A DNA stretch of 64,000 nucleotides from Candidatus Kapaibacterium sp. (GTDB taxonomy: Bacteria; Bacteroidota; Ignavibacteria; OLB7). Location: contig DASZRW010000112.1 in assembly GCA_035549015.1 (NCBI GenBank), positions 285 to 64,284 of the forward strand, in the 5' to 3' direction. The position numbers and the translations under genes were made by a program. Position 1 is the stretch's first letter; every line of letters starts with the position of its first letter. The notes under the pieces were generated by a model. It saw only the letters and a program-made list of their open reading frames with translations. It was not told the origin of the DNA and ran no database searches. This document shows positions 38,301 to 53,139 of the stretch, one piece after another.

Positions 38301-41300
38301 GGTTCGTGCTGGCTGCCGCACCGGAAAGCGGTCGCCCGGTGGTGAACGCATCCAGTGCAACGGCGGAGTACAGGCCATCGATGCGATCGCGGAAGAACTG
38401 CTCGTCGGCTCCGAGCGTCCCGAAGGAATTGCAGATCGAGCAGAGACACTCCAGCGCATCGATCCACTCCGTCACGAACGTCTCCACGCTCTCGGTAGGG
38501 CCGGTAAGGTCCTGCCCCTTCACATCCTGCTCGTACGCAGACACGGAGCTCTGCAGGTCTGCGTAGAAGTTCCGCACTCGCAGCGAGAGCGTTCCATCCA
38601 GCGCATCCGGCGAAGCCAGCGCCAGCGTCACCACGCGCAGTGCCCGCCGCAGATCCGGGCAGAGCGAATTGGACTGGGATGTTGCATCCAGTCCGAACAG
38701 GTGCTCCAGGCTGACGATGGTGTCGTTGAAGCCGTTCAGGAGCGACAGGATCGCCGGTATCGCCTGCGACCCGCTCTGCGTATCGAAACAGAGGAGCCGC
38801 GGGATTGCGATCAGGTCGCGCCAGGCACCGCCGCAGCTCGAGGCCGAGCCTCCTCCCGAACCGCATGCATCGCCACTGCTTCCCGCAAGCGCCGTGCGAA
38901 CCTGCTTCACCACGCTGGCAAGCGGTTCGTAGAGCGGCGCGTTGAATTGATCCACCAGCGTGAGCGTGGCCGTTTGAATCGCACCGAGGTTCAATGTGAG
39001 GAGGGCGAAGAACTCGGCGATCGTCCGCACCTTCCCGCTCCGGTCAGTCTGCCCGGCGGGCTGGTTCATATGAACGCCGAGCCCGTTGGCCTGCTCCGTG
39101 AGCGCATCGTAGATCCAGTCCACCTCGGGATCCACCAGCGCCGTCATCATGGACTGCACATAGGCCGGGAACGTCGAGCGATTGTCATAGAGCGTTCCCA
39201 GGCAGACCACAACGTCGAACCACTTCTCGTAGAACTCGTTCTGCGGAGCGGGCGGCGCATCCGGTTCCTCGCCGGACTCCGCGAGCAGTGAAACGTACTG
39301 GTCCGTGTAGCGCTTCACATCCTGATAGAAGTACTGCACGTTCTGCTGCAGCGCCGTGGGCGGGCGATCCTTGCCGGCCAATGCAACGATCACCGTGCCG
39401 AGCATTTCGCGAAGGCGTTCGCAGAATGTAGGGGCCGCCGCCGGTGCGCTCAGATGAAAGAGCTGGCGGAGGTAGTAGTTCGTCTTCGCAAACGACTTGG
39501 ACATCAATGTGCCGATGGCGGCCACGGGCGCGAGGTTCACGTCCGGTCCGTTCGTTCCGCTGCAGAGCGTGCGCGTGAAGCGCGGCATTGCGCGCATCAT
39601 CTCCCAGAACGAATCATCGCCGCCACCTGCCGATGGTCCCGAAGGAACGGCATCCCAGCTGTTCGGCCGCGTCGACACACCGGCCTGCTGGCTGGACGGC
39701 GGAGCAGATGCATACCCGCGATAGTAGGAGATCGTTGCCTTCGTTGCCGAGGTGGTCACCTTCATCCAGACCTTCGTGACCGTCGCTGGGAAATAGAACT
39801 CGATGCGATTCCCCGGGTCGATGCGCAGCGCGGCACTCTTGTCGAAGCCGCTGAAGCTTACCACGCGTGCCGATCCGTTGTCCGTGCGGAAGGCCAGCTT
39901 CCGGTCGAACACCCTGGTCTGTGCCGCGAACGGCGGCGCCGAAGTCATCCCCTCCCAGTCCAGGCAGGTCGGGTCAACCGGCGCAGGAGGGCAGAGAAGC
40001 ACTGTCGGCGGGAAGCCGAGTTCCGTGGGGGGCACGTCCGCGTTCTGCCCCAGCGGCGTGCGCCCGAGAAGCCGCAGCCGCGTGTAATGGCTCGGATCGG
40101 AAAGCTGCCATGCGCCATACTTCAGGCGCCGCGCCACCTCGGTCTCGAGCTGGGTAGAGTTGTTGAGAAGGTCCGGGTACTTGCTGATGAGCAGGCGCCG
40201 AAGCGGCGAGTTGGCATGCTCCATCTCGTACGGCAGCCATGCGCCGCCGTCACGATAATAGATCGCCACTTCGTCCACATTGTACTCGTGATGCACCTGC
40301 GGCGAGTGTCCCGGCTGCGGCGGCACGTACTCGTCGTTCTTCAGATCCGTGGTCACCGGGCCAAGCTTCGCGATGGACGAGCTGTCGCCGTTCGGCTTCA
40401 CCGGCTTGGAGAAGTCGATGTCGATGAACGAATCCACAGGGATGGTGAAGTGCGCGAAGTCTCCGATCCACGTGTTCACCGGCGCATCGTTCGATCCCGT
40501 GGATCCTATCACCGTTGGAGCCGGAATCGCGGGCGCGGACTGGTTCTGGTCCGGAGTATACGTCTCCGCCAGGAAGTTGACCGGGAAGCTCTCGCCGGTC
40601 AGCATGTGCACCGCACGAACCGGATGCGCGCCATCCACACGATACTGGTCCAGCTTCCGCGCGGCGCTTGGCTGGAAGAGGCCGATCTCGTGCAGGTTCG
40701 GAGTGGGATCGAACTCCCATGTCAGATCCACCGAGAGGCCGAGGTTGGGAATCGGCCACGGCAGGTCGAGCTCGATGCTGAAGCTGCCGCCGATGATGAA
40801 CGGGTGCGGCGCCTCGCCACGCAGCGTGGCCGTCACCGTAAGCCGGAACCCGATGCCGAACACCTTCAACTCCGCATAGCCCATCAGCTTCATCCATGCG
40901 CCGATCTGCGCCGGATGGAAGTTGATCTTTCCTCCCACCTCCATGCTCGCACCAAGTCCAACCTTCGCGATGCCGCAGTCCTTGACGATCTTCAGCGACA
41001 CACCGGCGCCGGCACGGATGCCGCTCGAGGAGAGCATCAGGTAGGCCCAGCCGTTGAGGATCTTCAACAGCGTCGCGGAGATGCGCTTGGCCTCCGGCGT
41101 ATCGCGGCCGATGTTGATGTACCAGCTCGAAGCGTTGCCGAAGAAGAACGCCAGCTCCATCGTGGCATCGATCTTCAGAATCTCTCCGCCCGAATCCGGC
41201 TTTCCTTCCTCGGGATCGGGCAGGTGGTAGTTGACGCCGATCGCCGCTTCCACGCTCTTCCTGGAGAGCGCGAACGAGGCGAAGAACGGGGGATCGTCCG

Positions 41301-43773
41301 AACTGTCGAGCCCCACGCGCTTGCTGAGGATGGATGCCTGCCCCTGCAGCACGAAGACATCCGGCGCGGAGTAGATGAAGCCGAGCTTCGCGGAGAATGC
41401 CCTGCCGCCGTCCGCAGCCGTTCCGAAGGAGACACCTGCGCCGATGGAGAAGCCGTCTGTCTGCGTGAACTTCGTCACGCCGTAGCCGCGCTCCGGCGCC
41501 TTGTAGTATTCCCACCAGGTGTTCTCATCCGGCTTCTGCAGCACATACTTGTTGCCGAAGAGCGCCTGGAATCCGTAGATGCCGAGGCCGGTGCTGCCAA
41601 GGATGATCGGCGTGTTGAGGTCTAGGAAGGCGGTAACCAGATAGGCACCGGTGGCAGGTGTCAGCGCCATCTGCGCTCCCCCCTTCAGGTGGATCTGCGG
41701 CAGCTCGAACTTCACGCCCCCCGTGTACTGCGGGGGGCTGGAGTCCGCCCCTGCCTTCACGGAGACGAAACCATCCAGCAGCACCGCCGCCTGCTCGCGC
41801 GGCATGTTCCCCGGGATGTGGAGATGGATGTGGATCCCCTGCATCTTCAGGTAGACATGATGCGGCGTGAGGCCGTCCACCGTTGCATACAGCTTGATGC
41901 CGTCGCCGCGCGCATCCACGCCACCAACGCCCGTGTTCACGCTCGCATCGAAGCCGATGAACTTGTACTCGCGCTGTACGCCGTTGTAGATCGCGCTGTC
42001 GCTGCCGATGTGAATGTTGCTCACCGAGAGTTTCACCGGTCCCACGCTCAGCGAGACGGACTTCGGCAGCACCAGGCTTCCCCCCTCGAAATCGATATGG
42101 CCGTTGGACCAGATGATAAGCCGCCGGATCTCGATGGACTGGTCCAGAATCGGGCCAACGGCAGGGAGATCGGCGGTGATTGCCAGGGTTCCGCCGGCAG
42201 CGAGGAAGAAGCGCCCGTTCTTCTCGCCGACCTCCAGGGACTTGATGGACATGTTGAAGAACCCGTCGATGCCGAAGCTCAGCGGGGGATCCACGTTCGC
42301 CGTCACCGTGTACTGGCCACTCTTGTAGCCGATCAGGATATCCACCTCCGTTTCGGAGACTCCCGGCGAGGAACGCGGGATGAGCAGCTTGCCGCCGATG
42401 CTGCAGGCAGTGATCTCGTTCTTGGAGAGGGTGACCTGAAACGATGTCAACTCGAGATCGAATCCGAACAGCGAGACCTTGAACGGCCCGCTCTGCCCCT
42501 GCACGGCCTCGAGCGTAATCGTTCCGGAGACACCACCGGTCCCGATAATCATCTTCTTCCCGATCAACCGGAATCCGCTGCCGCCTGCCTGGCCCGCGCT
42601 GCGGCTCCAGGCATCTCCATGAACTTCGATCTCCGCACGCTCCACATATGCACCCACGAACTCCACGGGGCGCCCGTCGCCGCTTACCGCACTGATGTTG
42701 GTGGTGCGGCTCAGGTCCAGCTTTGCCTGATCGATTCGCACATAGAAATTCGTCGAGCCGATGCGTGAGAACGGGACGGAGATATCGATGTCCGAATCGA
42801 TGGAGATACCGGTCTCGGTGCTGATCGTGACGTCCGCCTCACCGAACGTCATCACGGCCGGCGAACCGGTTGGCACGTATGTCGTCTCGTTCACCGGAAC
42901 GAGAATATCCGGAGGGAACGCGATGCCGGCGGTAAAGCGCGCGCTTGCCGTGATTTTCGGAAGAAGAAAATCCTTCGCGGTTGCGATCACCGAATCGCCT
43001 GCCCATTGTTTGTACAGGTTCGATATCGCATCCAGCACATCGCCTGCAGGAGCCAGGAGCGTATCGTACAATATTCGTCCGAACGAAATTCCGTTCTGGC
43101 GATAATAACTTCCAAGCTCGATTTTCCGGATCACATCCAACAGCATTGCCACGGGATCACCATTGCTCACCGTGATCGGCGTTGCCTGGGGGTATGCGGC
43201 ATTGATCTTCTGTATCAGCACCTGGATTGCCGCCGCAGGCGTAAGCTGGTTCTGCGCATTGATGAAGAGGCCGATTGCGCGATTCAGCAGGTCCTCCGTA
43301 CGAATCGGCAGCACCATGTGCAGAATCTCGCTGATGCCGTCCGCATCGAGGGAGAACGTGCTCAGATCAACTCCTCGCAGGAACCTGAGCAGCTTCCATT
43401 GGTAGCTGAGTGAGAACGGAATCAGCATCTGGTCAGCACCGGTGCCGCTCACATCCGGATTCACCACAAGCTTGAATCCGCTCCCGGCGATATCGATCTC
43501 GAGCTTGGTGCCAACAACGAGCGTCATGCTGAAGAAGCTCGTATCCCCGTGCCCCGTGGTTGAACTTTGCAGATCACGGTAGAACACCGACCCGAGCACG
43601 GAATCGAGGAAACCCGCCGGTAGCAGATCCACCAGCACGTGCGGGAGATCATCCGGCGAGATGAGCGTGGAAATCGGCAGGAGAAAGGCTTGCGATGCCA
43701 TGGTAGTTTGATGGTTAACGGCCTGGTGGTGCTGTTGCGAAGTGCGCTGGTCGCGCGAGCATGCGACCTCCAT
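35362..43773 (-). CDS. giant leaderless protein (2803 aa; alternative start ATG 43701), paralogous in part to the 3195-aa protein (shares the Cys-helical repeat module)
   Basis: Uninterrupted 8.4-kb ORF. Repeat copies: YEKWFDVVVCLGTLY..STFPAYV, VTEWIDALECLCSIC, CNRLIEIVECLRSLL..TYLPDSV, CERWLAVFRCLARTC..SRLPADV. The N-terminal 1300 aa are beta-rich with no known motif. No signal peptide. Confidence 0.8.
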   Translation of the reverse strand: MEVACSRDQRTSQQHHQAVNHQTTMASQAFLLPISTLISPDDLPHVLVDLLPAGFLDSVLGSVFYRDLQSSTTGHGDTSFFSMTLVVGTKLEIDIAGSGFKLVVNPDVSGTGADQMLIPFSLSYQWKLLRFLRGVDLSTFSLDADGISEILHMVLPIRTEDLLNRAIGLFINAQNQLTPAAAIQVLIQKINAAYPQATPITVSNGDPVAMLLDVIRKIELGSYYRQNGISFGRILYDTLLAPAGDVLDAISNLYKQWAGDSVIATAKDFLLPKITASARFTAGIAFPPDILVPVNETTYVPTGSPAVMTFGEADVTISTETGISIDSDIDISVPFSRIGSTNFYVRIDQAKLDLSRTTNISAVSGDGRPVEFVGAYVERAEIEVHGDAWSRSAGQAGGSGFRLIGKKMIIGTGGVSGTITLEAVQGQSGPFKVSLFGFDLELTSFQVTLSKNEITACSIGGKLLIPRSSPGVSETEVDILIGYKSGQYTVTANVDPPLSFGIDGFFNMSIKSLEVGEKNGRFFLAAGGTLAITADLPAVGPILDQSIEIRRLIIWSNGHIDFEGGSLVLPKSVSLSVGPVKLSVSNIHIGSDSAIYNGVQREYKFIGFDASVNTGVGGVDARGDGIKLYATVDGLTPHHVYLKMQGIHIHLHIPGNMPREQAAVLLDGFVSVKAGADSSPPQYTGGVKFELPQIHLKGGAQMALTPATGAYLVTAFLDLNTPIILGSTGLGIYGFQALFGNKYVLQKPDENTWWEYYKAPERGYGVTKFTQTDGFSIGAGVSFGTAADGGRAFSAKLGFIYSAPDVFVLQGQASILSKRVGLDSSDDPPFFASFALSRKSVEAAIGVNYHLPDPEEGKPDSGGEILKIDATMELAFFFGNASSWYINIGRDTPEAKRISATLLKILNGWAYLMLSSSGIRAGAGVSLKIVKDCGIAKVGLGASMEVGGKINFHPAQIGAWMKLMGYAELKVFGIGFRLTVTATLRGEAPHPFIIGGSFSIELDLPWPIPNLGLSVDLTWEFDPTPNLHEIGLFQPSAARKLDQYRVDGAHPVRAVHMLTGESFPVNFLAETYTPDQNQSAPAIPAPTVIGSTGSNDAPVNTWIGDFAHFTIPVDSFIDIDFSKPVKPNGDSSSIAKLGPVTTDLKNDEYVPPQPGHSPQVHHEYNVDEVAIYYRDGGAWLPYEMEHANSPLRRLLISKYPDLLNNSTQLETEVARRLKYGAWQLSDPSHYTRLRLLGRTPLGQNADVPPTELGFPPTVLLCPPAPVDPTCLDWEGMTSAPPFAAQTRVFDRKLAFRTDNGSARVVSFSGFDKSAALRIDPGNRIEFYFPATVTKVWMKVTTSATKATISYYRGYASAPPSSQQAGVSTRPNSWDAVPSGPSAGGGDDSFWEMMRAMPRFTRTLCSGTNGPDVNLAPVAAIGTLMSKSFAKTNYYLRQLFHLSAPAAAPTFCERLREMLGTVIVALAGKDRPPTALQQNVQYFYQDVKRYTDQYVSLLAESGEEPDAPPAPQNEFYEKWFDVVVCLGTLYDNRSTFPAYVQSMMTALVDPEVDWIYDALTEQANGLGVHMNQPAGQTDRSGKVRTIAEFFALLTLNLGAIQTATLTLVDQFNAPLYEPLASVVKQVRTALAGSSGDACGSGGGSASSCGGAWRDLIAIPRLLCFDTQSGSQAIPAILSLLNGFNDTIVSLEHLFGLDATSQSNSLCPDLRRALRVVTLALASPDALDGTLSLRVRNFYADLQSSVSAYEQDVKGQDLTGPTESVETFVTEWIDALECLCSICNSFGTLGADEQFFRDRIDGLYSAVALDAFTTGRPLSGAAASTNRCDQVNAIANMLTMLQTRCASAPTDAVTYLNDHVAAFEAGLVTFKAGKLAPFTGVVCNASGLSNDCNRLIEIVECLRSLLDRHTYLPDSVVQQMANDFNVLFSILSAVNALEHVVPESNGIILLPLDAPLDIVMFFVRNILANVYPSCLRGQSFPASVSTAVAGAMPQLESAFASLQSALSALDADSRVAICDSPHVDPVTRRTTLIANYRALCNVAPTSNQLATYPLANIITLMQNFAPMANQLASIYGLASVPASWPASDFCTMVARYVEILVIAYTDLSRVSPHQESEMLAFYNALQLLVADYSGSSAASGQCQTLCERWLAVFRCLARTCAVRSRLPADVFSDTGTGFEGAFGALLDGAYVKLLALADAAGATAQAGQGVGLCRKSRTIANYFAVRALDYANVDASGGLESIFTSYNDLRDAVHGTGTHGGHGRLCPPPVAGPYDPLMKRETRTRAELTQQVAYDNKDVPIDRITIVPAADCDTGQNAPCYTYVHEICWLAEADHVYNDDLPDPTAVRNATNDMLVALKDFPQPLWRPNTTYAVMIKTREVVSGGTSYTKYYTFGFRTAGPIGHFHEIGAANPPAYNEAYAGLVQSHGETEYKYANLKHYVDYERSYPNADGNIIGAKPLYYESAHLALYYRVDYMDTMFATWNQYQGLPRANVALKTVLLDPTMPASDAIVVDEPRWEQDPAPKEPKEFRLFKYMIQNKPNSDCATLTPLEQLDPNTPPPARRTVTPVTLEPNRMYAASFTAVFFNDGDSPVDREVHRYVFQTSRYRSLAEHIGSYLMPNDGGQPKKAIFDYVLPLGTDVATARTLIEGTVPNTTPYQALRAQYPLPYDALVNGVLRINMLPPAVTTEFTIVRESAGGPVLGILVRSPEPFNDPKLPAAEVAKGIVLTGFGAASDQRVIFSKDLANIFISTRTGVVATGTVQIGFQYRLFNGQTYDVATVLVDAGGGQFNEQTVPTETVTLTIT

Positions 43774-43895
43774 CCTCGTGGCGGCCGGACCGGCACTTCG
43801 GGTCCGGCCGCCGGGAAATCGGATCCGAGCGTTCCTGTCTATCGTCGCTGCAAGGCCGGCAGGCAGGCCATTGCCGCATGGGGTTGCCGGGAACT

Positions 43896-46800
43896 CTAGA
43901 TCGCGTCCGCGATGACCTTGAGGATCTCGAGAACTTTTAATACGAGAGCACTTGTTTTGGATACATCGAGATCCTCCCCTGCCCCCTGAAGCATGGCAAC
44001 GTGCAAATGCCCGGTCCGGAGCGTCGGATTATCCCTGGTGCGCATCAATGCCACTCGGTAGAAGATCTCATTGGAATAGTAGTTCCCGCCGGAACCGGCA
44101 ATCGACATGATATTACCGGTGATGAGGTTGGGAGTCTTCAACCCCGTGACTTCATTCTCAACCAGCACACGATTGGTTCGGAGACGCTTTGTGGGGTCAT
44201 TAAAGTCCCACTTTACCGCGGCTTGCGGCTTCTGGTCGAAATCCACGTATTCGAAGGTCTGATTGAAATACAACCCCTGGACGATGGGCTGTCCTCCGCT
44301 CTGCGGGAACAGAGCATCATACGGCAGCGTCGTCTCGTAGAATTCCTTTCCGGCGGGATCGGGGGGAAACGCTTCATCCCTGACATTGTTGTTGTCCAAG
44401 ACGATGTGGGATCGATCTGTTCTGCCGCGGCACGGGAACCGATCGATCCAGTACTCACCAGGCCTTCCCTGACTTATCGTCACGATTGCATCCACATGAT
44501 GGTCGTCATCGACAGCCTGTATGTACGGTTCGAAGAAATTCTCGACCACCATGTTATTGAAATCATCAGCGCGAACCGGGAATATCGCCCCACGAATATC
44601 GAGCCGTTTTCCTCCCGGCGTGGTATAATTACGATTCATGAGGTTCAACACGGCTACGCCGGATGGATTGCTCTGCCGGATGTTCGAATATCCATGTATT
44701 GGCGTCAGGAAAAACGGATCGAATCCGGATATCAGGATGCGCTTGGCAGTTGTACTTCGTCCGACCGGCCATGCTGTACTCTGCGGCGAGAACCCGCGCG
44801 AACACCCCTCGAGGAAACTCAACAGGGCATCGATGTTTTTCGGACCGATATCCTTCAAGGCGGCACTCATCGCCAATCGCGCCCAGTAGAGCTGCCTGTC
44901 ATCGTACGTTGTATCCGCATTCCCTCGGACCGTTTCAAGGAGATCATAGGCTCGCTGCTTCACCGCATCGCGCATGTCATTGAAGGATGCCCCGGATGTT
45001 TCAAGCCCCTGGAGCGCCGTCGAGAACTGAGCGATTTTACTCTTGATGGCCGGCGTCAGAATATCGTTCTGCGGGATGGTCTCACTGACGTAGACATTCT
45101 CCTCGATTGAGCAGCCGGCATGCGGCTGCGGCGTCTGAGGCTCGACGGTTGCAAACGCCTGCGAGGTGAACAGCAGGCCATCGACGCTGTAGACGTAAAT
45201 ATCGCTGCCGGAGGCAGGAAAGACCGTCAACTGCAGGTGGCGCCCGGTAACGGCCGTATCAATTCCCGTCCCCCAGCCTCGCACACCAAGCCGATATTTC
45301 TGGCAACCTTCTCCGATAGCCCCAACGGGATCGAGAACGATATATCGGGCATGATGCGGACTGAATCCGGCAAGGGCGGCAAGTGCATCGTGCTGAGCCT
45401 GCGTAAGGCCCAGTGCAAGAATGTTCTTGCGTGACAACGAAGGTGTGGACGGAATGTCCACCAGCTGAAACGTCTTTACGGCCGTCCCGTCCGTGATCTC
45501 CTGTTCCACCAACAACAGATGCCCGAGCTGCTGCACCAGAACCTGCAGGAAACTCTTCGGCCCGCTCGTACTGTTTACCGAACCGCCCGGTAGCTGAGCT
45601 ATCTGCGGTGGTGTCATGCCGATCGCCGGCACGTAGTCGGTGGCGATCGCGAAGTGTACCACGTTCGCCGCTCCCGATTCGAACGCAATCCCTCGCTCGC
45701 TCACCGTCGCAACTTCCACTCCAGCCACCGCACCGGCTCCGACAAACGTTCGATCGCCCATCGAATTCCACGTTACGGCATTCGATGTTCCTGCACCCGA
45801 GGCCGGTATTGCCCACTGCGACGTTGCAGAGAGCGGCCCGAACACGAAGTTGGTGTACTCCCCAACAGATGGAAGCGGCACCGAGTCCGGAGAGAGCGGG
45901 AGGAAGATGGGCGTATCTGATTGCCTGAAATAGTGGATCCGAACCAGCCCGCCAATATTGATGCGGTTCCCCGGCGTGGCCGCCTGCCGGTTGGGAACCG
46001 CGAGCGCCACCGGCTGCGTCCATTCCACATTTGCTCCCGTGCCAAGCATGTTTTCATCGAGGATCCGGCCAACAACTGCGCGGGATGCAATGACCGCGCC
46101 ATCCACGTGCATCAGCGGCTTGTGGTTGTCTTCAATCCGGAGCTTGAGATAGAACGCATTCATCGCCTCCGCTGTGGTTGCCGTCACGGTTGTTGCGATA
46201 ATCGGCCAGCCACCCGAGCCATAGACCGACTGGGCCATCGTGGCGCCGGGTGCAAGGCCGAACTGAAGATTGTTCCGTTCGGCGCCGGTTACATCGTGCC
46301 CATAGTTGCCGTAGTAGTCGTACGCGTAGCCCGCCTCGTTGCGAATGTCGATGTAGAGCGTATCGCACGTGTGGAAGCGCGAAAGCAGGTCCGTGTAGAG
46401 ATACTCCTCCTTCTTCGGCGGAAATGGAATCGCATGCATATACACGCCTGCATAGTAATGCATGGCATAGTATGTGGCAGGATCGATATAGCGGTGGATC
46501 TCCTCGCGCCTGAACTGGAGTTCCAACGGATCAGTCACCTTTGAAAGATCGATCTCGTACACCGGCTGCCGCACGTAGTCCAGCGTGAGATCGGAGGCGT
46601 CGTTGTCCAGAACGATCTCGAAGCCGATGCGATTGGCATCGAAGTGCCCGAGAAGCATACCGCGATCCGCCACCGCAAGCTGGAATCCCGATGTGGGCGT
46701 CACCGATGAATCCACATGGAAGAACAGACTGTCCAGCGTGGTGGTTCCCGCCTGACTGGGATCCCAGCCGAGCACCTTCGCAAGAACGGGGTTGCTGGGG

Positions 46801-49800
46801 TTGATGTGAAGCGCCGCCGCCATGGCAGCATCAGCGGTATATATTGCCTGGATGAACTGCGTAGCTCCTGCCGAGGGGACGAGATTCGTTTCCGTAGCGC
46901 CGAGGAAGTCGGATTTGCGAAGGCCACGATAGACGAAGTACTTCACCGTGAACGATCCCATCGCCGTCTGCTCGATCGGCCTCAGCACCAGGTTGACGTG
47001 ATCGTTGTCCACCTTCTGAATGATCACGGTTCCACGAGTAGCGGCATAGGCCTCGACATCCGAGGATGTGCTGCTGACGAAGGAACTGGTAACGCGGAAC
47101 TTCGTGAGGCCCTTCGGGCCGAATGCATCATCGGGCACCTGATTCCTGACGCTCGCCATGTTGGCAAACTCGTGGAGCTTCGAGAGCGGCTTCTGGCTGC
47201 GAAGCTGGGTCTCCGACGGCACTCCCTCGAGCGCAGCCACCGAGACGGTATGCACCTTCTCGACACGCAGGCTGGCACCGGATCCGATACGCGCGGTAAT
47301 CGCAATCGTACTGCCGTTCTGCGCATTGGATAGTGTAAGGTTTCCGAGGAACGTTGCGGAGTTCGTTGAACCGGCCGCGGGCGAACTCGTTATCGTGGCC
47401 CATGTCACTGCCTGCGTGAAGCACCATACTCCCGCATAGTGATATGTGGTGCTTTCGGTGGTCCCGTCCGCCGCGGTGCGGACAAAATCAATGGAGACAT
47501 CGGGCGAACTGAAGGTTTTTACATCGACGGCTGTGATGGTGAAGGAAGTGGTAACCACTGTGCCGATTGCATCCACCTGGACCGCATCCGGCAGAACCTC
47601 GCCGCTGTTTCCGTTGAGGCCGATGTCCGCAAAGTTCAGTTTGCGATAGGTGATATTGTTGTTGTGCCCGGCGTCGGCACCGTTCATGGCACCGTCGTGC
47701 GGGCTTACATCCACCAGCAGGTACAGATCGCCGGCTGTCGTAAATCCCGACGTTGGCGGTGCCGGCCACGAGATGTTCGCCAGGTAGGTATTGCTGGCCG
47801 TAGGATCGCCTGTTGGTGCAATGACGCCGGCGGGGATTTTCGTCTCTCCCAGCAGATAGGAGCCATGGCCGCCGGTGCTGTACAATCGATTGATATCCGT
47901 GCTGAGTCCGGTGACGGAATCCACCTTGTCGTACGGAAAATCCGTGGGGAACTGGAACGCCGGATTGGCGCCGTCGGCCAGGTGAGCAATGAAGAACCGG
48001 ACAACCGCCGGCAGATTGTACAGCCCGGTTGGATCCGTATCGTTCGCTCCCATGTACACACCGCGATTGGTAATTCGTGCGCAAATCCACTTGGGATTGT
48101 CGAACACCGGAACCTGATATGGGCCCGGCTGGGTGTAGGGAACGGTGTTTGCAGCAACATCCGTTGTTGGATCGGCAATGCGCAGCCACAGATCGGGGCT
48201 GTCGATCGTATTCGATGGAGACGTTCCCGTATCGCTGAGGTTATCCCGGATCATCAGGTCGCGCAGGTCATTGCTGAAGTCGAGCGCCATCCCCACCGCA
48301 CGGTCGGCATTGATACGGCCATAGCCGTAGAAGTGATTGAAGTCCGGAATCCGTCCCCCCTTCACCGGCGTTGTCGCCGGATGCGTTCCCTTCAACCCGC
48401 GATCCACGATCATCCGCGTAGCGCTCTCGATGGAGAGGATGTACCGAATCTCCGCGTTCGTTCCGGTGTTGATCTGTATCGCCTGTCCCGCAACGAAGCT
48501 GAGCGTGGAAACAACATCGATGGTAGCACCGGAAACGGCTGTGATCGTTGTCCACCCGCATTCCACGGTGGAGTTCGCCGCGTGACTGTGCGCCAGCGCA
48601 CGATCCAGCCGTACGACATTGGCCCCAACGATCGCCTTGACAATTGCGCGTTCGGGAGTATGCGCGGAATCGATTCGAAGGGCATGCCCGACTGTGTACT
48701 GCGAGGCATCCGCGACATGAATTTCCGTATCCCCGACGCCGAGGGCGTCGACGATCACGTCGTTGCTGACACTCTCGAGAACCAACAACGTACTTCCACC
48801 AACCACCTCGATCACCGGATTATTGTTGCGATCGAACCATTTCCCGGCGCCGGGAGCGGAACTGTTTTCCGGCTGCCCTGTTCCGGTGTTCAGGAGATCG
48901 ATCTTGTCTGCCGACCGGCGAAGAATATCACGCGCCTCCCAGAAGGTAAGCCGTGAGGTATTGGTCTGCGGATCGATCTGTGCCGACAGCACCAGAGCGG
49001 CAACGCCGGCTGCCAGCGGGCAGGACATCGAGGTGCCTCCGTAGCCATTGGAGTACGATGGTGTGCCGCCAACCACCGTGGATCCTATCCCATGGGTGAA
49101 CTGCAGATGGTCGTTGATACTGATCTGGGTGGGGGAGGTAACGTTGGAATCGATGAGTTCTCCATCGGCACCATCCGCGGTCGCCGCAAATGCTCCGTTC
49201 TTTCCATCGACGGAATGGACATTCGTTTTTCCTGCCGCGTCGATCATCAATCCCTGCCCCTTCCAGAATCCCGCCGTGCACTCCACCGTGATCGAGCCAT
49301 CGCCGTGATTACCGATTGCCGTAAGCGTTGTAGCCAGTGTTGCGGACCCCTTCGGTCCCCCCAGGAAATAGATGTGCGTCGGCGAGAGGAAGCTGCTGCT
49401 GAAGACCGCATCGATTGCCGCCGTCAGCGTGAGCTGGTTGCCGGATCCATTGGCCGCGAGCTGACGGATTTTGCATGTGGACTGCGCAGGATCACCAACC
49501 AGAATCCATTGATCCTTGAAGAAGCCATCGCTCGAACCCACATGAAGCACCGTGTCCGTTGCAACGGTATCCTGCGAGAGATTGGTCATCGACTTCGAAA
49601 GTGCACGCACCCGTACTCCGCACCCCAGCGCCGCCCCAACCGCCTCGTTCAATTCGATCCGGCGCCCCGAGAATACCGTCTTCACCGTATGCAGAGCATT
49701 GGGCCCTGGATCGCCGATCATGATCGTTTGATCGGGAACGAATCCGGTTGCGTGTTCCAGTCCGATAATGGTGTCGGTACTGAGTGTGGCCACCCATATC

Positions 49801-51701
49801 GTGGTATCGACATATCCGGCATCGGCCGCCATTATCCCTTCCTGCACGCAGGCCGTGGTAATGCCTCGCCAGTAGCTGAGCGGAGTATTCCTCTTTGGAC
49901 TTCCATACGATCCGTTATCGCAGGGAGCACAGATCTCGAGTCCCTGCCGGGCGTCGGCAATGGAGGAATAACTGGCTGATGTCGACAACCGCTCAACCAG
50001 GCTTCCATCGTGGTCCACACTCTCCACATTGAGTGAGGCTCCTCCCACCCCCACCACTTCATCCTCGAAGCAGATTCGCTGCTCGTCCCGCACGAGGTGC
50101 GAGCTTGCATTTCGGTCTCCCACGGCAAAGAGAACAAGCCCGCCGCGACCGGCACGCCCGTAGCGGGCCACGATCTGCAACGCCCGCTGCGTCCCGTCTG
50201 TGACCGTATACCCCAGCGCGTCCCATTGGTAGCTGTTAGTACAGATATCCGCGGACGGCACGTTGGAGAGCGAGGAGAGGGCCGGCGGGAGGTCGCTGTA
50301 GGCACGTCCGGATGGGAACGAAGCCCAGAGGGTGGTGCTCCACGTGAACGAGTAGCCGAACATCCACTGAAAAGTCTCCGCCTTCGAATTCTGGCTTTCC
50401 GCGCGCAGCACAACAAGCGCGCGGGAATTTCCGGCTACGCCGGCCGTTCCCTGCCCGTCGTTGGTGGACGCAGCGATCAGCCCCAACGCCTGCGTGCCAT
50501 GCTGGCGGTAAATCTCGTCGCTACCGGAATTACCGGGCCACGGCGAAACATGGTGATCCGGATAGAAGCGGGTGAAGTCATAGTAGTATGCGATGCGCGG
50601 GCTTCCTCCGGTAACGTTCCCAAGCAACGCCGGATGCCGGGGAACAGTCAGCCCCGAATCGATGTCCACTTCGGACTCGGTTCCGAAATCGACTGCAGCA
50701 ACGCAGATGTGCTCGCTGCCGAACGTGATATCGCCGGCACTTCCCAACGAGACGCCTGCCGCTGTCCTCAACCGCTGCCACGCCTTCGCCACCTGCATGA
50801 CGCGAAGATGCCACTGGTCCGGATAGAGCGTATCGGGATTGGTCAACGAGAGATCGCTGACCGGCGCGAACAACGGGAGGTCGCGCGTGGAACTCACTCC
50901 CTGTTCCGCGCGCTCCACCAGGCCGGAGTCCACAAGCATGCGGCAGAGCGCAAGTGCCGTGGTATCGGGCACCACGCGAACCAGGACGTGGCCCGGATTG
51001 GAGGAAGGCCGTGCGATGAGCGGAAGCCCATGCTGCTGCAGAAGAATGTCAACCGCATCGGCGTTCAGGTCCGCGCGGAACCAGAGCATGAGCTGGTCGC
51101 CGAGATACGACACCCCGTGCGTATCGTGCTCCACCACCAATGCCGCCGATGCGATCGGCTCCTCCGCACGCAGTCGCTGGAGGACTGCCGGGAGTTCATC
51201 ACCTGAAACGGTGGCGGAGGTCCGCCCAAGCACCAGCGGTCGCAACCGGGTTTCGGAGTCCATGTCGAGTTCGATGCCGACGGAGGCAGCCGCAGCAGCC
51301 AGTTCCGCCTGGGTTGCCTCGGGAGCCGGCATCACCACGACTTCGGGCTTCGCCGCCAGGTGCACCGGCCTGCGCATGGTACCGGCGTACACGTAAAAAT
51401 CGCCCGGCACGCCCAGGTGAACATATTCGTCGGAAGCACCGGCGCCGATACGAATCGTCCGCTGCTCGGATTCGAATCCACCGCACTCCACGCTCATACG
51501 GTAGACGCCGGGCGCAATACCTTCGAAGATCCAGCTTCCGGCAATCCGTTCCGCCGTATCCGGCAATGGACCCGACACGGTCTGCTGAGATGAATCGCTG
51601 CTCTCGTAAACGCGTTGCAACGCGACGGCGGCATCGGTGAGCGGCGTAAATCCACCGTCGCAAATATGTACGCTCAGCTTGGCGGTGCTCAAGGGTGTCA
51701 T
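43896..51701 (-). CDS. giant leaderless multidomain protease (2601 aa): N-terminal carboxypeptidase-regulatory-like domain, subtilisin-like S8 peptidase domain with large insertions, long beta-rich middle, C-terminal pyroglutamyl-peptidase (C15)-like domain
   Basis: CarbopepD_reg-like segment GSWIFEGIAPGVYRMSVECGGFESEQRTIRI. S8 motifs DQWHLRVMQVAKAW, ...AAVDFG..., HGTQALGLIAASTNDGQGTAGVAGNSRAL (His box), GTSMSCPLAAGVAALVLSA (Ser box). C15-like segment KRILISGFDPF...NPSG...GRPGEYWIDRFPCRG...SGGNYYSNEIFY...TGHLHVAM. Confidence 0.85.
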   Translation of the reverse strand: MTPLSTAKLSVHICDGGFTPLTDAAVALQRVYESSDSSQQTVSGPLPDTAERIAGSWIFEGIAPGVYRMSVECGGFESEQRTIRIGAGASDEYVHLGVPGDFYVYAGTMRRPVHLAAKPEVVVMPAPEATQAELAAAAASVGIELDMDSETRLRPLVLGRTSATVSGDELPAVLQRLRAEEPIASAALVVEHDTHGVSYLGDQLMLWFRADLNADAVDILLQQHGLPLIARPSSNPGHVLVRVVPDTTALALCRMLVDSGLVERAEQGVSSTRDLPLFAPVSDLSLTNPDTLYPDQWHLRVMQVAKAWQRLRTAAGVSLGSAGDITFGSEHICVAAVDFGTESEVDIDSGLTVPRHPALLGNVTGGSPRIAYYYDFTRFYPDHHVSPWPGNSGSDEIYRQHGTQALGLIAASTNDGQGTAGVAGNSRALVVLRAESQNSKAETFQWMFGYSFTWSTTLWASFPSGRAYSDLPPALSSLSNVPSADICTNSYQWDALGYTVTDGTQRALQIVARYGRAGRGGLVLFAVGDRNASSHLVRDEQRICFEDEVVGVGGASLNVESVDHDGSLVERLSTSASYSSIADARQGLEICAPCDNGSYGSPKRNTPLSYWRGITTACVQEGIMAADAGYVDTTIWVATLSTDTIIGLEHATGFVPDQTIMIGDPGPNALHTVKTVFSGRRIELNEAVGAALGCGVRVRALSKSMTNLSQDTVATDTVLHVGSSDGFFKDQWILVGDPAQSTCKIRQLAANGSGNQLTLTAAIDAVFSSSFLSPTHIYFLGGPKGSATLATTLTAIGNHGDGSITVECTAGFWKGQGLMIDAAGKTNVHSVDGKNGAFAATADGADGELIDSNVTSPTQISINDHLQFTHGIGSTVVGGTPSYSNGYGGTSMSCPLAAGVAALVLSAQIDPQTNTSRLTFWEARDILRRSADKIDLLNTGTGQPENSSAPGAGKWFDRNNNPVIEVVGGSTLLVLESVSNDVIVDALGVGDTEIHVADASQYTVGHALRIDSAHTPERAIVKAIVGANVVRLDRALAHSHAANSTVECGWTTITAVSGATIDVVSTLSFVAGQAIQINTGTNAEIRYILSIESATRMIVDRGLKGTHPATTPVKGGRIPDFNHFYGYGRINADRAVGMALDFSNDLRDLMIRDNLSDTGTSPSNTIDSPDLWLRIADPTTDVAANTVPYTQPGPYQVPVFDNPKWICARITNRGVYMGANDTDPTGLYNLPAVVRFFIAHLADGANPAFQFPTDFPYDKVDSVTGLSTDINRLYSTGGHGSYLLGETKIPAGVIAPTGDPTASNTYLANISWPAPPTSGFTTAGDLYLLVDVSPHDGAMNGADAGHNNNITYRKLNFADIGLNGNSGEVLPDAVQVDAIGTVVTTSFTITAVDVKTFSSPDVSIDFVRTAADGTTESTTYHYAGVWCFTQAVTWATITSSPAAGSTNSATFLGNLTLSNAQNGSTIAITARIGSGASLRVEKVHTVSVAALEGVPSETQLRSQKPLSKLHEFANMASVRNQVPDDAFGPKGLTKFRVTSSFVSSTSSDVEAYAATRGTVIIQKVDNDHVNLVLRPIEQTAMGSFTVKYFVYRGLRKSDFLGATETNLVPSAGATQFIQAIYTADAAMAAALHINPSNPVLAKVLGWDPSQAGTTTLDSLFFHVDSSVTPTSGFQLAVADRGMLLGHFDANRIGFEIVLDNDASDLTLDYVRQPVYEIDLSKVTDPLELQFRREEIHRYIDPATYYAMHYYAGVYMHAIPFPPKKEEYLYTDLLSRFHTCDTLYIDIRNEAGYAYDYYGNYGHDVTGAERNNLQFGLAPGATMAQSVYGSGGWPIIATTVTATTAEAMNAFYLKLRIEDNHKPLMHVDGAVIASRAVVGRILDENMLGTGANVEWTQPVALAVPNRQAATPGNRINIGGLVRIHYFRQSDTPIFLPLSPDSVPLPSVGEYTNFVFGPLSATSQWAIPASGAGTSNAVTWNSMGDRTFVGAGAVAGVEVATVSERGIAFESGAANVVHFAIATDYVPAIGMTPPQIAQLPGGSVNSTSGPKSFLQVLVQQLGHLLLVEQEITDGTAVKTFQLVDIPSTPSLSRKNILALGLTQAQHDALAALAGFSPHHARYIVLDPVGAIGEGCQKYRLGVRGWGTGIDTAVTGRHLQLTVFPASGSDIYVYSVDGLLFTSQAFATVEPQTPQPHAGCSIEENVYVSETIPQNDILTPAIKSKIAQFSTALQGLETSGASFNDMRDAVKQRAYDLLETVRGNADTTYDDRQLYWARLAMSAALKDIGPKNIDALLSFLEGCSRGFSPQSTAWPVGRSTTAKRILISGFDPFFLTPIHGYSNIRQSNPSGVAVLNLMNRNYTTPGGKRLDIRGAIFPVRADDFNNMVVENFFEPYIQAVDDDHHVDAIVTISQGRPGEYWIDRFPCRGRTDRSHIVLDNNNVRDEAFPPDPAGKEFYETTLPYDALFPQSGGQPIVQGLYFNQTFEYVDFDQKPQAAVKWDFNDPTKRLRTNRVLVENEVTGLKTPNLITGNIMSIAGSGGNYYSNEIFYRVALMRTRDNPTLRTGHLHVAMLQGAGEDLDVSKTSALVLKVLEILKVIADAI

Positions 51702-52061: not shown

Positions 52062-52679
52062 TCAGAAGCGCGGTGTAACGTCCTCGAAAATCTCCAGCGA
52101 GATTGTTTCAACGATTCCGGCATCGGTAAGGATACGCGCCTTGTCCACGATCCCCTCTCCGATATCCTTACCGAACGAGACACCGTACCGGCGTGGATTA
52201 TGTTCATCCACTTCGAAGCCGGCAGGTGTCAGCATCCGCACTGCAGATCTGCACGCGTCGGGCGTCACGGACGATTTGAACACCACGCTGAACGATGTCG
52301 CGAATATCCCGATATCCCGACCGCGGGAGATCCGAACGATCGGACCATAGTGGTAATCCGACTGTGTACGCAGGGCCAGGAGCTCCGGTGCATGCAGGCG
52401 ATCGAACGGTTTTCCGTCGCGTCGCCGCACGATACGCATGGAGGTTGCCGCATCGCCCGAAAGGTATTTGCTGCCAACATCTTCCAGGCCCAGGCTGTCG
52501 AGCAGGCGCCGAAGGCGAACCGCACCGCTCCCCGCCGGAGACATATTGGTGGCCAACAGATATGGGAAGGAACGATATTCCCGCATCGATGTGTTATCCG
52601 GATATTCCGCGCGAATTCCCGATTCCACGGAGAAGAAACAACCGCTCATCGCCAATGCTGCCGTCATGATCAGGAGCAT
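52062..52679 (-). CDS. hypothetical lipoprotein (206 aa) immediately upstream of, and co-oriented with, the giant-gene cluster
   Basis: Lipoprotein signal MLLIMTAALAMSGC starts at ATG 52679 (Met29 of the listed ORF). A 360-nt gap separates it from the first giant gene. Confidence 0.55.
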   Translation of the reverse strand: MLLIMTAALAMSGCFFSVESGIRAEYPDNTSMREYRSFPYLLATNMSPAGSGAVRLRRLLDSLGLEDVGSKYLSGDAATSMRIVRRRDGKPFDRLHAPELLALRTQSDYHYGPIVRISRGRDIGIFATSFSVVFKSSVTPDACRSAVRMLTPAGFEVDEHNPRRYGVSFGKDIGEGIVDKARILTDAGIVETISLEIFEDVTPRF

Positions 52680-53139
52680 CGGGAGAGCCTGACGACACAC
52701 CAGAATGTGCACGGCATCACTCATCACCCGGCCTGTTGCGTTATGCAGAAAATGCACGACCATCGTGCTCCCTGCGGAGCGCCAACATACGCCGGAAGGC
52801 GGGGAGTATCAATACGGCCGGTGAAGTCTACCGAACGCGACATTCCACTGCGGAGAATGACTTCGGAGCAATCCTACGAAGCGGATTGCGCAGTTCGTTC
52901 CTGAAATAACAGCGTGCAACGCGCACGTGCAGTAACCCCAAACCATGTGAGAGGAAGTGGCTCGTTGCGAGATTGACATCCGGGGCAATGCGGTGGTTGT
53001 TTTCGACAGGGACAAAATTAGCGGCGGCCGTCGCCGAATGCAATAGCAGGTATCACGTTCGCGAAAATATTTTTCACAGACCGTGTTCCCCATGCACTCC
53101 GGACACCATCACGACTTCGAGGACCACCATCTGTACACA

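What the first reader, a model, noticed from the sequence alone, without database searches (positions are those of the whole stretch)
43896..44710. C15 (pyroglutamyl peptidase I)-like C-terminal domain with apparent Cys-to-Ser and Glu-to-Asp catalytic substitutions, fused to an S8 protease
The last ~270 aa of the 2601-aa protein follow the PCP-I fold landmarks: ISGFDPF (TGFEPF in canonical PCP), NPSG, ..SQGRPGEYWIDRFPCRG.. (IERIAVN region), SGGNYYSNEIFY (where canonical enzymes have G-T-Y-(L/V)-C-N-x-x-x-Y) and TGHLHVAM (GFIHVP). By eye, the nucleophile Cys aligns to Ser and the Glu to Asp, while His is retained. That would make a Ser/His/Asp version of the C15 scaffold, or a pseudo-peptidase, combined in one polypeptide with an S8 protease whose His and Ser boxes are ~450 aa apart because of large insertions. 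An S8, C15-like and CarbopepD_reg-like combination in a leaderless 2601-aa protein is unusual.
Basis: inference. Interest (0 to 1): 0.6.

Follow-up and report, generated by a model that had tools for sequence, protein, structure and literature searches.

The report
Serine-type pyroglutamyl-peptidase-like toxin module
The end of this 2601-residue protein really is a pyroglutamyl-peptidase (C15) fold whose catalytic cysteine is replaced by serine; it belongs to a large, uncharacterised family of exported enzymes that bacteria attach to toxin-delivery machinery, so it is most likely an active hydrolase "warhead".

Summary
The last ~285 residues of the ORF at 43896-51701 (-) are C15-like by sequence profile (family profile against solved PCP-I chains, E 2e-10) and by fold (AF2 pLDDT 86.6; the top 33 Foldseek PDB hits are all PCP-I, TM about 0.7). 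Ser2543 sits on the nucleophile Cys, His2567 on the catalytic His and Asp2420 on the Glu.

This is a family trait. In 243 domain instances the nucleophile is Ser in 242 and never Cys. The acid is Glu in 136 and Asp in 107. Family-specific residues Glu2545, Arg2549 and His2565 are invariant or nearly so. That argues for an active enzyme and against a pseudo-peptidase.

It is a ~400-residue module made of the helical PA0049_N domain (PF27118) plus the Ser-type C15 domain.

Elsewhere the module follows Sec signal peptides. It is also fused to T6SS Hcp/TssD, PAAR-like DUF4280 or eCIS_core domains. In three Bacteroidota loci, homologous lipoprotein genes (probable immunity genes) lie directly downstream.

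The S8 + C15-like giant architecture recurs in at least 25 protein clusters. It always lies upstream of homologues of the two neighbouring giant genes, a conserved cluster with no annotation.

The substrate is unknown. My best guess is an amide bond in the cell envelope.

The parts
43896..51701 (-). 2601-aa ORF with no signal peptide. Layout: N-terminal beta-sandwich, S8 protease with insertions, about 1000 aa of beta-rich middle region, PA0049_N, then the Ser-type C15-like domain.
   Evidence: An identical protein is on record as a hypothetical protein of a 'Candidatus Kapabacteria' MAG. Full-length homologues share 25-48% identity.
43899..44750 (-). C15 (pyroglutamyl peptidase I)-like catalytic domain, residues about 2318-2601, with Ser in place of the nucleophile Cys.
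   Evidence: Family profile against solved PCP-I chains, E 2e-10. Foldseek top 33 hits are all PCP-I. Pfam PF01470 is sub-threshold for this single sequence.
44751..45113 (-). PA0049_N (PF27118) helical domain, residues about 2197-2317. It starts at the SIEEN motif and contains DDRQLYWARL.
   Evidence: Precomputed Pfam hit PF27118 on this protein. The motif is aligned and nearly invariant in A1/A2. It is modelled as a helical bundle in one confident unit with the C15 domain (pTM 0.89).
44073..44075 (-). Ser2543 (codon TCC), at the position of the C15 nucleophile Cys.
   Evidence: Ser in 242 of 243 family domain instances, never Cys.
44001..44003 (-). His2567, at the position of the C15 catalytic His (GHLHV aligned with GFIHVP).
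   Evidence: His in 241 of 243.
44442..44444 (-). Asp2420, at the position of the C15 catalytic Glu (IDRF aligned with IERV).
   Evidence: The family has Glu in 136 and Asp in 107 instances.
44007..44009 (-). His2565, a family-specific invariant His two residues before the catalytic His. Canonical C15 has Phe here.
   Evidence: 243 of 243. The canonical residue is seen.
44055..44069 (-). Glu2545 to Arg2549 (SNEIFYR), family-specific invariant residues on the helix that follows the nucleophile.
   Evidence: Glu 243 of 243, Arg 242 of 243. Canonical enzymes have His/Tyr and Gly/Leu at these positions.
48147..50804 (-). Subtilase (S8) domain with two large insertions. Triad D338 (50688-50690), H401 (50499-50501), S891 (49029-49031). 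The oxyanion Asn is replaced by Asp529.
   Evidence: Pfam PF00082, 36.7 bits against a cut-off of 21.8. The giant-family profile hits mirolase at 5e-41. Motif alignment.
45114..48146 (-). Conserved middle region, residues 1186-2196. It consists of beta-sandwich domains plus the 'D module' (residues about 1501-1950, window 45852-47201), which marks the gene-cluster family.
   Evidence: AF2 pLDDT 77.8. Only generic Ig-like matches. The D module was found in 70 loci.
35362..43773 (-). 2803-aa neighbour, a conserved partner gene directly downstream of the D-module protein in other genomes.
   Evidence: tblastn synteny and clustering in 52 loci. No Pfam, PDB or PADLOC hit.
25553..35140 (-). 3195-aa neighbour, the second conserved partner. 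It shares repeats with the 2803-aa protein.
   Evidence: No Pfam, PDB or PADLOC hit.

Best explanation
Residues about 2197-2601 form a PA0049-like module: a helical PA0049_N domain packed on a C15 (pyroglutamyl-peptidase I) fold. In this fold the thiol triad Cys/His/Glu has become Ser2543/His2567/Asp2420, supported by family-specific Glu2545, Arg2549 and His2565.

I take it to be a catalytically active serine-type hydrolase that works outside the cytoplasm. It probably cleaves an amide bond in a cell-envelope component; a peptidoglycan stem peptide is my leading guess. It would serve as the enzymatic warhead at the C-terminus of its carrier protein.

In this window the carrier is a giant S8-protease-bearing 'D-module' protein. 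This protein is the first gene of a conserved, unannotated cluster with two further giant proteins.

Shown:
- the fold, the residue equivalences and the family-wide conservation;
- the fusions to T6SS and eCIS delivery domains;
- the linked downstream lipoprotein genes;
- the Sec signal peptides on stand-alone members;
- the conserved synteny.

Inferred:
- catalytic activity;
- the extracytoplasmic site of action;
- the toxin role of this particular copy;
- the substrate;
- the idea that Ser replaced Cys because a thiol nucleophile is a liability in an oxidising compartment.
For: Fold and homology.

Conservation: Ser in 242 of 243, His in 241 of 243, Glu or Asp in 243 of 243, plus invariant N2345, R2427, N2437, E2545, R2549 and H2565, at about 30% overall identity. 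The family is large: 580 clusters at 50% identity score E<1e-30.

Delivery context, from the precomputed Pfam hits:
- TssD/Hcp fusions (P0030, P0034);
- PAAR-like DUF4280 fusions (P0031, P0040);
- eCIS_core fusions (P0012, P0056, P0122);
- YkuD + eCIS_core fusions (8 proteins).
P0012 lies next to eCIS sheath, tube and baseplate genes. DUF4157/eCIS_core at the N-terminus with a toxin domain at the C-terminus is the published eCIS toxin pattern (PMC8213781). Zhang et al. 2012 listed pyroglutamyl-peptidase domains among PVC-SS and polymorphic toxins (PMC3482391).

Probable immunity: homologous small lipoproteins (30-44% identical) lie directly downstream in three independent Bacteroidota loci, followed by paralogue arrays.

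Export: stand-alone members of about 380 aa carry Sec signal peptides.

Modularity: D-module carriers occur with the C15-Ser module or with about 10 other tail types.

Pocket residues shared with canonical PCP-I are kept: GFDPF, NPS, Gln, and Arg...DN.
Against: - No activity of any member has been measured, and none was found in the literature held here.
- The window protein has no recognisable Hcp, PAAR, eCIS_core or RHS trafficking domain.
- It has no signal peptide.
- It has no small gene downstream. The next giant gene starts 122 nt later, and no homologue of the Bacteroidota lipoproteins is in the window.
- In the giants the whole architecture is conserved end to end. That would also fit a built-in, non-toxic function.
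- I could not measure triad geometry, because model coordinates are not exposed.
- The peptidoglycan guess rests only on periplasmic immunity proteins, YkuD co-fusion and a by-eye LAS/M15-like motif in alternative tails, which no tool confirmed.
Confidence: 0.6

Rival explanations
1. It is a pseudo-peptidase. The C15 scaffold has lost its thiol nucleophile and serves as a non-catalytic binding or structural domain.
For: Replacing the nucleophile Cys with Ser inactivates canonical PCP-I (my own knowledge of mutagenesis on the Bacillus enzyme, not checked here). The window sequence scores below the Pfam C15 threshold.
Against: Ser, His and the acidic residue are each kept in at least 241 of 243 divergent domain instances. 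Extra polar residues next to them (E2545, R2549, H2565) are also invariant. Such a pattern is expected for a working active site and not for a decayed one. The module also occupies the toxin position in T6SS and eCIS fusions.
Confidence: 0.07
2. It is simply a serine-type pyroglutamyl aminopeptidase. It has the same reaction and substrate as PCP-I (removal of N-terminal pyroglutamate) but has been moved outside the cytoplasm, with no toxic role.
For: The residues that line the pyroglutamate pocket in canonical enzymes are kept: both Phe of GFDPF, NPS, Gln, and Arg...DN. Stand-alone secreted members sit in housekeeping-looking neighbourhoods, for example Shewanella.
Against: Removing pyroglutamate is hard to reconcile with Hcp, PAAR-like and eCIS_core fusions and dedicated downstream lipoproteins. 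Curated PCP-I models score these proteins 13-33 bits against cut-offs of about 200. The family-specific invariant E2545, R2549 and H2565 and the added PA0049_N domain point to altered specificity.
Confidence: 0.12
3. The family has become a metal-dependent hydrolase. The invariant H-x-H (His2565, His2567) together with Glu2545 and Asp/Glu2420 bind a metal ion, and Ser2543 is not the nucleophile.
For: H-x-H on one face of a beta-strand plus two invariant carboxylates nearby in sequence resembles metal-site motifs. The c.56 fold class also includes Zn-dependent exopeptidases (my own knowledge).
Against: Ser is as invariant as the histidines and sits exactly at the nucleophile position, at the N-terminus of the helix. 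No fold match to a metalloenzyme outranks PCP-I. This rival was not tested directly.
Confidence: 0.08
4. In the giant proteins the module is a built-in processing or maturation enzyme. It would trim or release parts of the giant protein or its two giant partners, perhaps together with the S8 domain. It would not be a delivered toxin.
For: The giant architecture is conserved end to end in at least 25 clusters. There is no downstream immunity gene in the window and no trafficking domain. Two protease-type domains sit in one polypeptide.
Against: The same module is the C-terminal cargo of T6SS and eCIS fusions with linked lipoproteins. In D-module carriers it is replaceable by about 10 other tail types. 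That is the behaviour of an exchangeable payload and not of a core processing activity.
Confidence: 0.13

Closest known systems
Pyroglutamyl (pyrrolidone-carboxylate) peptidase I, MEROPS family C15 / Pfam PF01470 (e.g. PDB 1AUG, 1IOF, 3LAC, 5Z48)
   Same: Same alpha/beta fold (Foldseek E 2e-10, TM about 0.7). The catalytic residues have the same topological placement. GF(D/E)PF, NPS, Gln, Arg...DN, the Asn after the nucleophile and the catalytic His are all kept.
   Different: The nucleophile is Ser, not Cys. The acid is Asp or Glu. Extra invariant Glu, Arg and His lie around the active site. There is a variable insertion of about 60-70 residues before the nucleophile strand. An obligatory N-terminal helical domain is present. 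Members are exported or delivered, not cytosolic. Scores are far below the curated PCP-I cut-offs.
PA0049-like proteins (Pfam PF27118 PA0049_N + C15-like domain; some are named 'C15 family peptidase' or 'pyrrolidone-carboxylate peptidase' by their sources)
   Same: The window module is a member. It has the same two-domain unit, the same invariant residues and 30-40% identity.
   Different: Most members are secreted proteins of about 380 aa or fusions of 600-850 aa. Here the module ends a 2601-aa protein that starts with an S8 protease. No member has a described function.
T6SS / eCIS polymorphic effectors with C-terminal enzymatic toxin domains (e.g. Hcp- or PAAR-fused effectors; DUF4157/eCIS_core-toxin fusions, Geller et al. 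2021; 'pyroglutamyl-peptidase' toxins listed by Zhang et al. 2012)
   Same: Family members have exactly this layout, with lipoprotein genes downstream. An eCIS_core-WHH/colicin-DNase toxin is encoded 21 kb away in this window.
   Different: The window protein lacks any of the known trafficking domains and lacks a downstream immunity gene. Its carrier is an undescribed D-module/S8 giant protein.
Subtilases (S8), e.g. mirolase, furin/kexin, thermitase
   Same: The N-terminal part has the Asp/His/Ser triad and passes the Pfam threshold.
   Different: There are two insertions of several hundred residues. The oxyanion-hole Asn is replaced by Asp in this protein and its closest relative. There is no propeptide or signal peptide. 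The domain is embedded in a 2601-aa protein.

Membership tests
Peptidase C15 (pyroglutamyl peptidase I) | PCP-I alpha/beta fold | tested here: met
   AF2 model pLDDT 86.6. The top 33 Foldseek PDB hits are all PCP-I, E down to 2e-10, TM-target 0.62-0.73.
Peptidase C15 (pyroglutamyl peptidase I) | Score above the curated family thresholds (Pfam PF01470; NCBIfam PCP-I models) | tested here: not met
   PF01470 gives 17.4 bits against 22.7 for the window domain. NCBIfam gives 13-20 bits against about 199. Homology is nonetheless significant at profile level.
Peptidase C15 (pyroglutamyl peptidase I) | Catalytic Cys nucleophile (it is a cysteine peptidase family) | tested here: not met
   Ser2543 aligns with the Cys. 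The family has Ser in 242 of 243 and no Cys.
Peptidase C15 (pyroglutamyl peptidase I) | Catalytic His and acidic residue at conserved positions | tested here: met
   His2567 and Asp2420 align with the His and Glu of solved enzymes. Both are conserved family-wide.
Peptidase C15 (pyroglutamyl peptidase I) | Removes N-terminal pyroglutamate | not testable with these tools
   Needs an enzyme assay (pGlu-AMC or pGlu-peptides).
PA0049-like module (PF27118 + Ser-type C15-like) | PA0049_N helical domain directly upstream of the C15-like domain | tested here: met
   Precomputed PF27118 hit, marked weak. The DDRxLYWxRL and E..SR motifs are aligned. A helical bundle is modelled in one unit with the catalytic domain.
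PA0049-like module (PF27118 + Ser-type C15-like) | Family signature residues: TISQ, (D/E)RF...R...DN, GSGG.YLSNE..YR, GH.H | tested here: met
   All are present in the window protein except that Y replaces L before the Ser.
T6SS / eCIS polymorphic effector | N-terminal trafficking domain (Hcp/TssD, PAAR or DUF4280, VgrG, RHS, eCIS_core) | tested here: not met
   Pfam and NCBIfam find only S8 and a weak CarboxypepD_reg hit on the 2601-aa protein. Relatives do carry such domains.
T6SS / eCIS polymorphic effector | Enzymatic toxin domain at the extreme C-terminus | tested here: met
   The module ends at the stop codon. Relatives have the same position.
T6SS / eCIS polymorphic effector | Cognate immunity gene adjacent to the toxin gene | tested here: inconclusive
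   The window has no small gene downstream (122-nt gap) and no homologue of the Bacteroidota lipoproteins. An unrelated 220-aa lipoprotein gene lies about 360 nt upstream. Relatives have downstream lipoproteins.
Subtilase S8 (N-terminal part of the same protein) | Asp/His/Ser triad in S8 order and Pfam threshold | tested here: met
   D338/H401/S891. PF00082 gives 36.7 against 21.8 bits. The oxyanion Asn is Asp529 here.

The most novel reading that the evidence does not exclude
The Ser-type C15 module is one of several exchangeable cell-envelope-degrading payloads of an undescribed delivery or toxin system. That system would be built from a 'D-module' carrier protein plus one or two giant partner proteins of 2000-3200 aa (the homologues of 35362-43773 and 25553-35140). 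It is conserved in Bacteroidota, Acidobacteriota, Alphaproteobacteria and Kapabacteria, and has no similarity to T6SS, eCIS, Tc or RHS machinery. In addition, the family would be the first natural serine-nucleophile lineage of peptidase clan CF, with a new substrate specificity.
Probability: 0.2. Interest if true: 0.85.

Novelty: new variant of a known kind. Interest (0 to 1): 0.55.

Why it matters
C15 is treated as a purely cysteine-peptidase family. A large lineage (at least 580 clusters at 50% identity) that uses Ser/His/Asp-or-Glu on the same scaffold would be a natural example of nucleophile switching. It looks tied to a move from the cytosol to extracytoplasmic or injected action.

The module is repeatedly attached to T6SS and eCIS delivery domains, with dedicated lipoprotein partners. 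It is therefore probably a widespread antibacterial or anti-host effector whose chemistry and target are unknown. That makes it a clear candidate for biochemical work.

In this window it also points to a conserved cluster of three giant genes without any annotation. The function of that cluster is an open question.

Tried and rejected
- Canonical PCP-I membership is rejected. The nucleophile is Ser, and scores are far below curated cut-offs.
- Sequencing error or a single-sequence oddity at the Ser codon is rejected. The codon is TCC, and Ser is family-wide.
- An anti-phage defence system finds no support. PADLOC has no hit for the three giants or the two upstream genes.
- Pfam on the two neighbouring giants, in halves and at E up to 10, gave nothing meaningful.
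- PDB sequence searches with the 2803-aa and 3195-aa proteins, and with a 12-sequence profile of the conserved N-terminal 1350 residues, gave nothing.
- The AF2 model of residues 1186-2200 (pLDDT 77.8) gave only generic Ig-like beta-sandwich matches in PDB and BFVD. The D module remains of unknown fold.
- No homologue of the Bacteroidota immunity-like lipoproteins is in the window.
- Pfam on 10 alternative D-module proteins or tails gave only one weak alpha/beta-hydrolase hit.
- A LAS/M15-like motif (S..H.NG.A.D ... H..H.H) that I saw by eye in one tail type was not confirmed by PDB profile searches or by tblastn against phages. It remains a lead only.
- A word-indexed homology search with residues 1-2190 returned only the protein itself and one relative.
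- Literature searches for C15, pyroglutamyl peptidase, T6SS, eCIS, PA0049 and DUF6603 found only the one-line mention in Zhang et al. 2012 and transcriptome lists.
Full report
**1. What is in the sequence**

The minus-strand ORF 43896..51701 encodes 2601 aa.
- ISGFDPF 2324-2330
- NPSG 2345-2348
- TISQGRPGEYWIDRF 2408-2422
- SGGNYYSNEIFYR 2537-2549
- TGHLHVAM 2563-2570

The true domain start is about residue 2318 (window 44750). No signal peptide or hydrophobic segment is present.

**2. Is it C15-like beyond chance?**

The single sequence is weak. Against Pfam PF01470 it scores 17.4 bits (cut-off 22.7), and against NCBIfam PCP-I models 13-20 bits (cut-off about 199). Phmmer against PDB chains gives E about 0.5.

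The domain has clear homologues. There are 17 at 31-39% identity, and 16 of the 18 aligned sequences hit PF01470, best E 5.8e-16. A profile of these hits 19 solved pyrrolidone-carboxylate peptidases, best E 2e-10.

An AlphaFold2 model of the last 420 residues, built on an 87-sequence alignment, has pLDDT 86.6 and pTM 0.89. Its 33 best Foldseek matches in the PDB are all PCP-I structures (E 2e-10 to 2e-6, TM-target 0.62-0.73). The next matches are nucleoside phosphorylases, at E>1e-3. The fold assignment is therefore secure.

**3. Catalytic positions**

In the HMMER alignments:
- The family motif GSGGxYLSNEIFYR aligns with TAGTFVCNHLFYG of the Bacillus enzymes. It also aligns with SAGLYLSNYVMY of the P. 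furiosus Cys-free mutants, so Ser2543 takes the place of the nucleophile Cys.
- GHLHVP aligns with GFIHVP, so His2567 is the catalytic His.
- I(D/E)RFA aligns with IERVA/IERIA, so Asp2420 takes the place of the Glu.

The predicted secondary structure places these residues as in PCP-I. The acid lies at the end of a strand, Ser at the N-terminus of a helix after a strand, and His within the following strand. I could not measure distances, because coordinates are not exposed.

**4. It is a family trait**

A library-wide profile search finds 1155 cluster representatives at E up to 0.001 and 580 at E up to 1e-30. In 243 domain instances from 242 representatives:

| Position | Residue counts |
|---|---|
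| Nucleophile | Ser 242, Pro 1, no Cys |
| Acid | Glu 136, Asp 107 |
| Catalytic His | His 241 |

Residues shared with canonical C15 are also kept. These are GFDPF, NPS, Gln2411 (mostly), Arg2427, Asp-Asn2437 and the Asn after the nucleophile.

Three further residues are invariant or nearly so but differ in canonical enzymes:
- Glu2545, where canonical enzymes have His or Tyr;
- Arg2549, where they have Gly or Leu;
- His2565, where they have Phe.

Such conservation at about 30% overall identity argues for an active enzyme. Glu to Asp is ordinary variation within the family.

**5. The unit is larger than reported**

Nearly all relatives carry Pfam PF27118, named PA0049_N in the precomputed hits. 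It lies directly upstream of the C15-like domain. In the window protein it spans about 2197-2317, starting at SIEEN and containing DDRQLYWARL. It is modelled as a helical bundle forming one confident unit with the catalytic domain. PA0049 itself is uncharacterised.

**6. What the module is used for elsewhere**

- Stand-alone members of about 380 aa (Shewanella, Chitinimonas, Kangiella, Thalassotalea, Streptomyces) begin with typical Sec signal peptides followed by the VEExR start of PA0049_N.
- Other members are C-terminal fusions to TssD/Hcp (P0030, P0034), PAAR-like DUF4280 (P0031, P0040), eCIS_core/DUF4157 (P0012, P0056, P0122), YkuD + eCIS_core (eight proteins), patatin, amidase and a cytochrome c3 domain.
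- P0012 lies beside eCIS sheath, tube, gp25 and spike genes.
- DUF4157 at the N-terminus with a toxin at the C-terminus is the published pattern for eCIS toxins (PMC8213781).
- Zhang et al. 2012 listed pyroglutamyl-peptidase domains among PVC-SS and polymorphic toxins in one sentence, with no analysis of the catalytic residues (PMC3482391).
- In three independent Bacteroidota loci (Aquimarina muelleri, an uncultured Aquimarina, Chryseobacterium aurantiacum) the gene immediately downstream encodes a small protein with a lipoprotein signal. These proteins are 30-44% identical to each other and are followed by arrays of paralogues.

This is the classic picture of an effector with a periplasmic immunity protein. 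Taken together, the family acts outside the cytoplasm, and in many cases as a delivered toxin. A serine nucleophile would suit an oxidising compartment better than a thiol; this last point is my inference.

**7. The context in this window**

The N-terminal part is a genuine subtilase. It scores 36.7 bits on PF00082, and its triad is D338/H401/S891 with His and Ser 490 residues apart. The giant-family profile hits mirolase at 5e-41. In this protein and its closest relative the oxyanion-hole Asn is replaced by Asp.

The whole architecture is conserved end to end in at least 25 clusters of 2284-3255 aa. It runs from the S8 domain through about 1000 aa of beta-rich middle region to PA0049_N and the C15-Ser domain. 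The combination is therefore a recurrent design and not an accident.

A scan of one genome per species found 69 loci encoding the middle region. Tblastn and ORF clustering show a conserved gene order. The 'D-module' protein (residues about 1501-1950 are the common core) comes first. A homologue of the 2803-aa neighbour follows, and often a homologue of the 3195-aa neighbour after that. This order is seen in Bacteroidota, Acidobacteriota, Alphaproteobacteria and Kapaibacteriota, and no other + strand gene is conserved.

D-module proteins occur in three forms:
- giant, with S8 and the C15-Ser module;
- 1080-1800 aa, with the C15-Ser module but without S8;
- carrying one of about 10 other C-terminal tails.

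In Taibaiella the D module and the C15-Ser module are separate adjacent genes. The C15-Ser module therefore behaves as an exchangeable payload.

None of the partner proteins has a Pfam, PDB or PADLOC match. The middle-region model shows only Ig-like sandwiches.

The window also encodes an eCIS_core + colicin-DNase/WHH toxin at 18983-22555. No eCIS structural genes were found among the ORFs I scanned.

**8. Mechanism and confidence**

I commit to an active Ser2543/His2567/Asp2420 hydrolase that forms a covalent acyl-enzyme as PCP-I does. It would act outside the cytoplasm as a C-terminal payload (confidence 0.6).

The substrate is not established. Several observations make an amide bond in a cell-envelope component the most likely target:
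- PCP-I pocket residues are kept;
- the probable immunity proteins are periplasmic;
- the module is co-fused with YkuD domains.

A peptidoglycan stem peptide is my best guess, and it is only a guess.

The window copy lacks a known trafficking domain and a downstream immunity gene. This keeps open the rival that, in the giants, the module is a built-in processing enzyme. A pseudo-peptidase, a plain secreted pyroglutamyl aminopeptidase and a metal-dependent variant using the H-x-H pair are less likely, for the reasons given with each rival.

**9. Novelty**

The family exists in databases (PF27118; some members are named 'C15 family peptidase'), and its toxin association was noted in 2012. I found no description of the serine nucleophile, of the invariant extra residues, of the immunity lipoproteins or of the giant-gene cluster.

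I rate it a new variant of a known kind, with moderate interest (0.55). The conserved giant-gene cluster around it is the more open question.

Noticed in passing
window 25553-35140 (-) and 35362-43773 (-); loci L008-L076: Two giant genes (3195 and 2803 aa) downstream of the target have no Pfam, PDB or PADLOC match and share repeats with each other. Their homologues follow D-module proteins in 52 loci from several phyla. The N-terminal 1350 aa of the 2803-aa family is highly conserved (46% mean column identity). It is related to a Taibaiella protein that carries DUF6603.
   Followed up: partly
window 18983-22555 (-): A 1190-aa protein with an eCIS_core (DUF4157) domain at residues 277-353 and a C-terminal colicin-DNase/WHH nuclease. 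This is a typical eCIS-associated toxin. No eCIS structural genes were seen among the window ORFs I scanned.
   Followed up: partly
window about 50115-50117 (-), residue Asp529 of the 2601-aa protein: In the S8 domain the oxyanion-hole Asn of the AAGN motif is Asp (AVGD) in this protein and its closest relative P0178. The other 21 giants aligned keep Asn. The Asp/His/Ser triad is intact.
   Followed up: partly
window 52062-52724 (-): A 220-aa ORF about 360 nt upstream of the giant gene on the same strand starts with a lipoprotein-type signal (…ALAMSGC). It is not similar to the Bacteroidota immunity-like lipoproteins and is not conserved in the other loci. It could be an unrelated gene or a local immunity candidate.
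   Followed up: partly
window 43896-51701 compared with its flanks: The target gene has lower G+C (0.57-0.585) and lower third-position GC (0.69) than the two giant genes next to it (0.81). This may indicate a different history for this gene.
   Followed up: no
window 43774-43895: The 122-nt gap between the target gene and the 2803-aa gene contains a strong GC-rich inverted repeat (CGGCGGCCGGACCcgaagtgccGGTCCGGCCGCCA) just upstream of the next start codon.
   Followed up: no
loci L031, L028, L035, L040-L042, L046, L048, L050 (C-terminal about 200 aa of D-module proteins): One alternative tail type has invariant S..H.NG.A.D ... H..H.H. By eye this resembles the Zn-binding motifs of LAS/M15 cell-wall peptidases. 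No PDB profile or phage tblastn hit confirmed it.
   Followed up: partly
loci L027, L029, L047, L049, L053 (tails of D-module proteins): A second tail type shares an FVHGATHNGF motif and gives a weak alpha/beta-hydrolase (DUF1057) Pfam hit. It may be an esterase or lipase-type payload.
   Followed up: no
P0125 (1769 aa) and P0016 (463 aa): P0125 carries two tandem copies of the C15-Ser module. P0016 fuses the module to a multihaem cytochrome c3 domain.
   Followed up: no
locus L006 6853-7605 (Taibaiella koreensis): The 250-aa gene overlapping the end of the C15-Ser protein P0049 has a signal peptide and MORN/YwqK-like repeats by eye. It may be a different type of immunity protein. This was not tested with any profile.
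   Followed up: no
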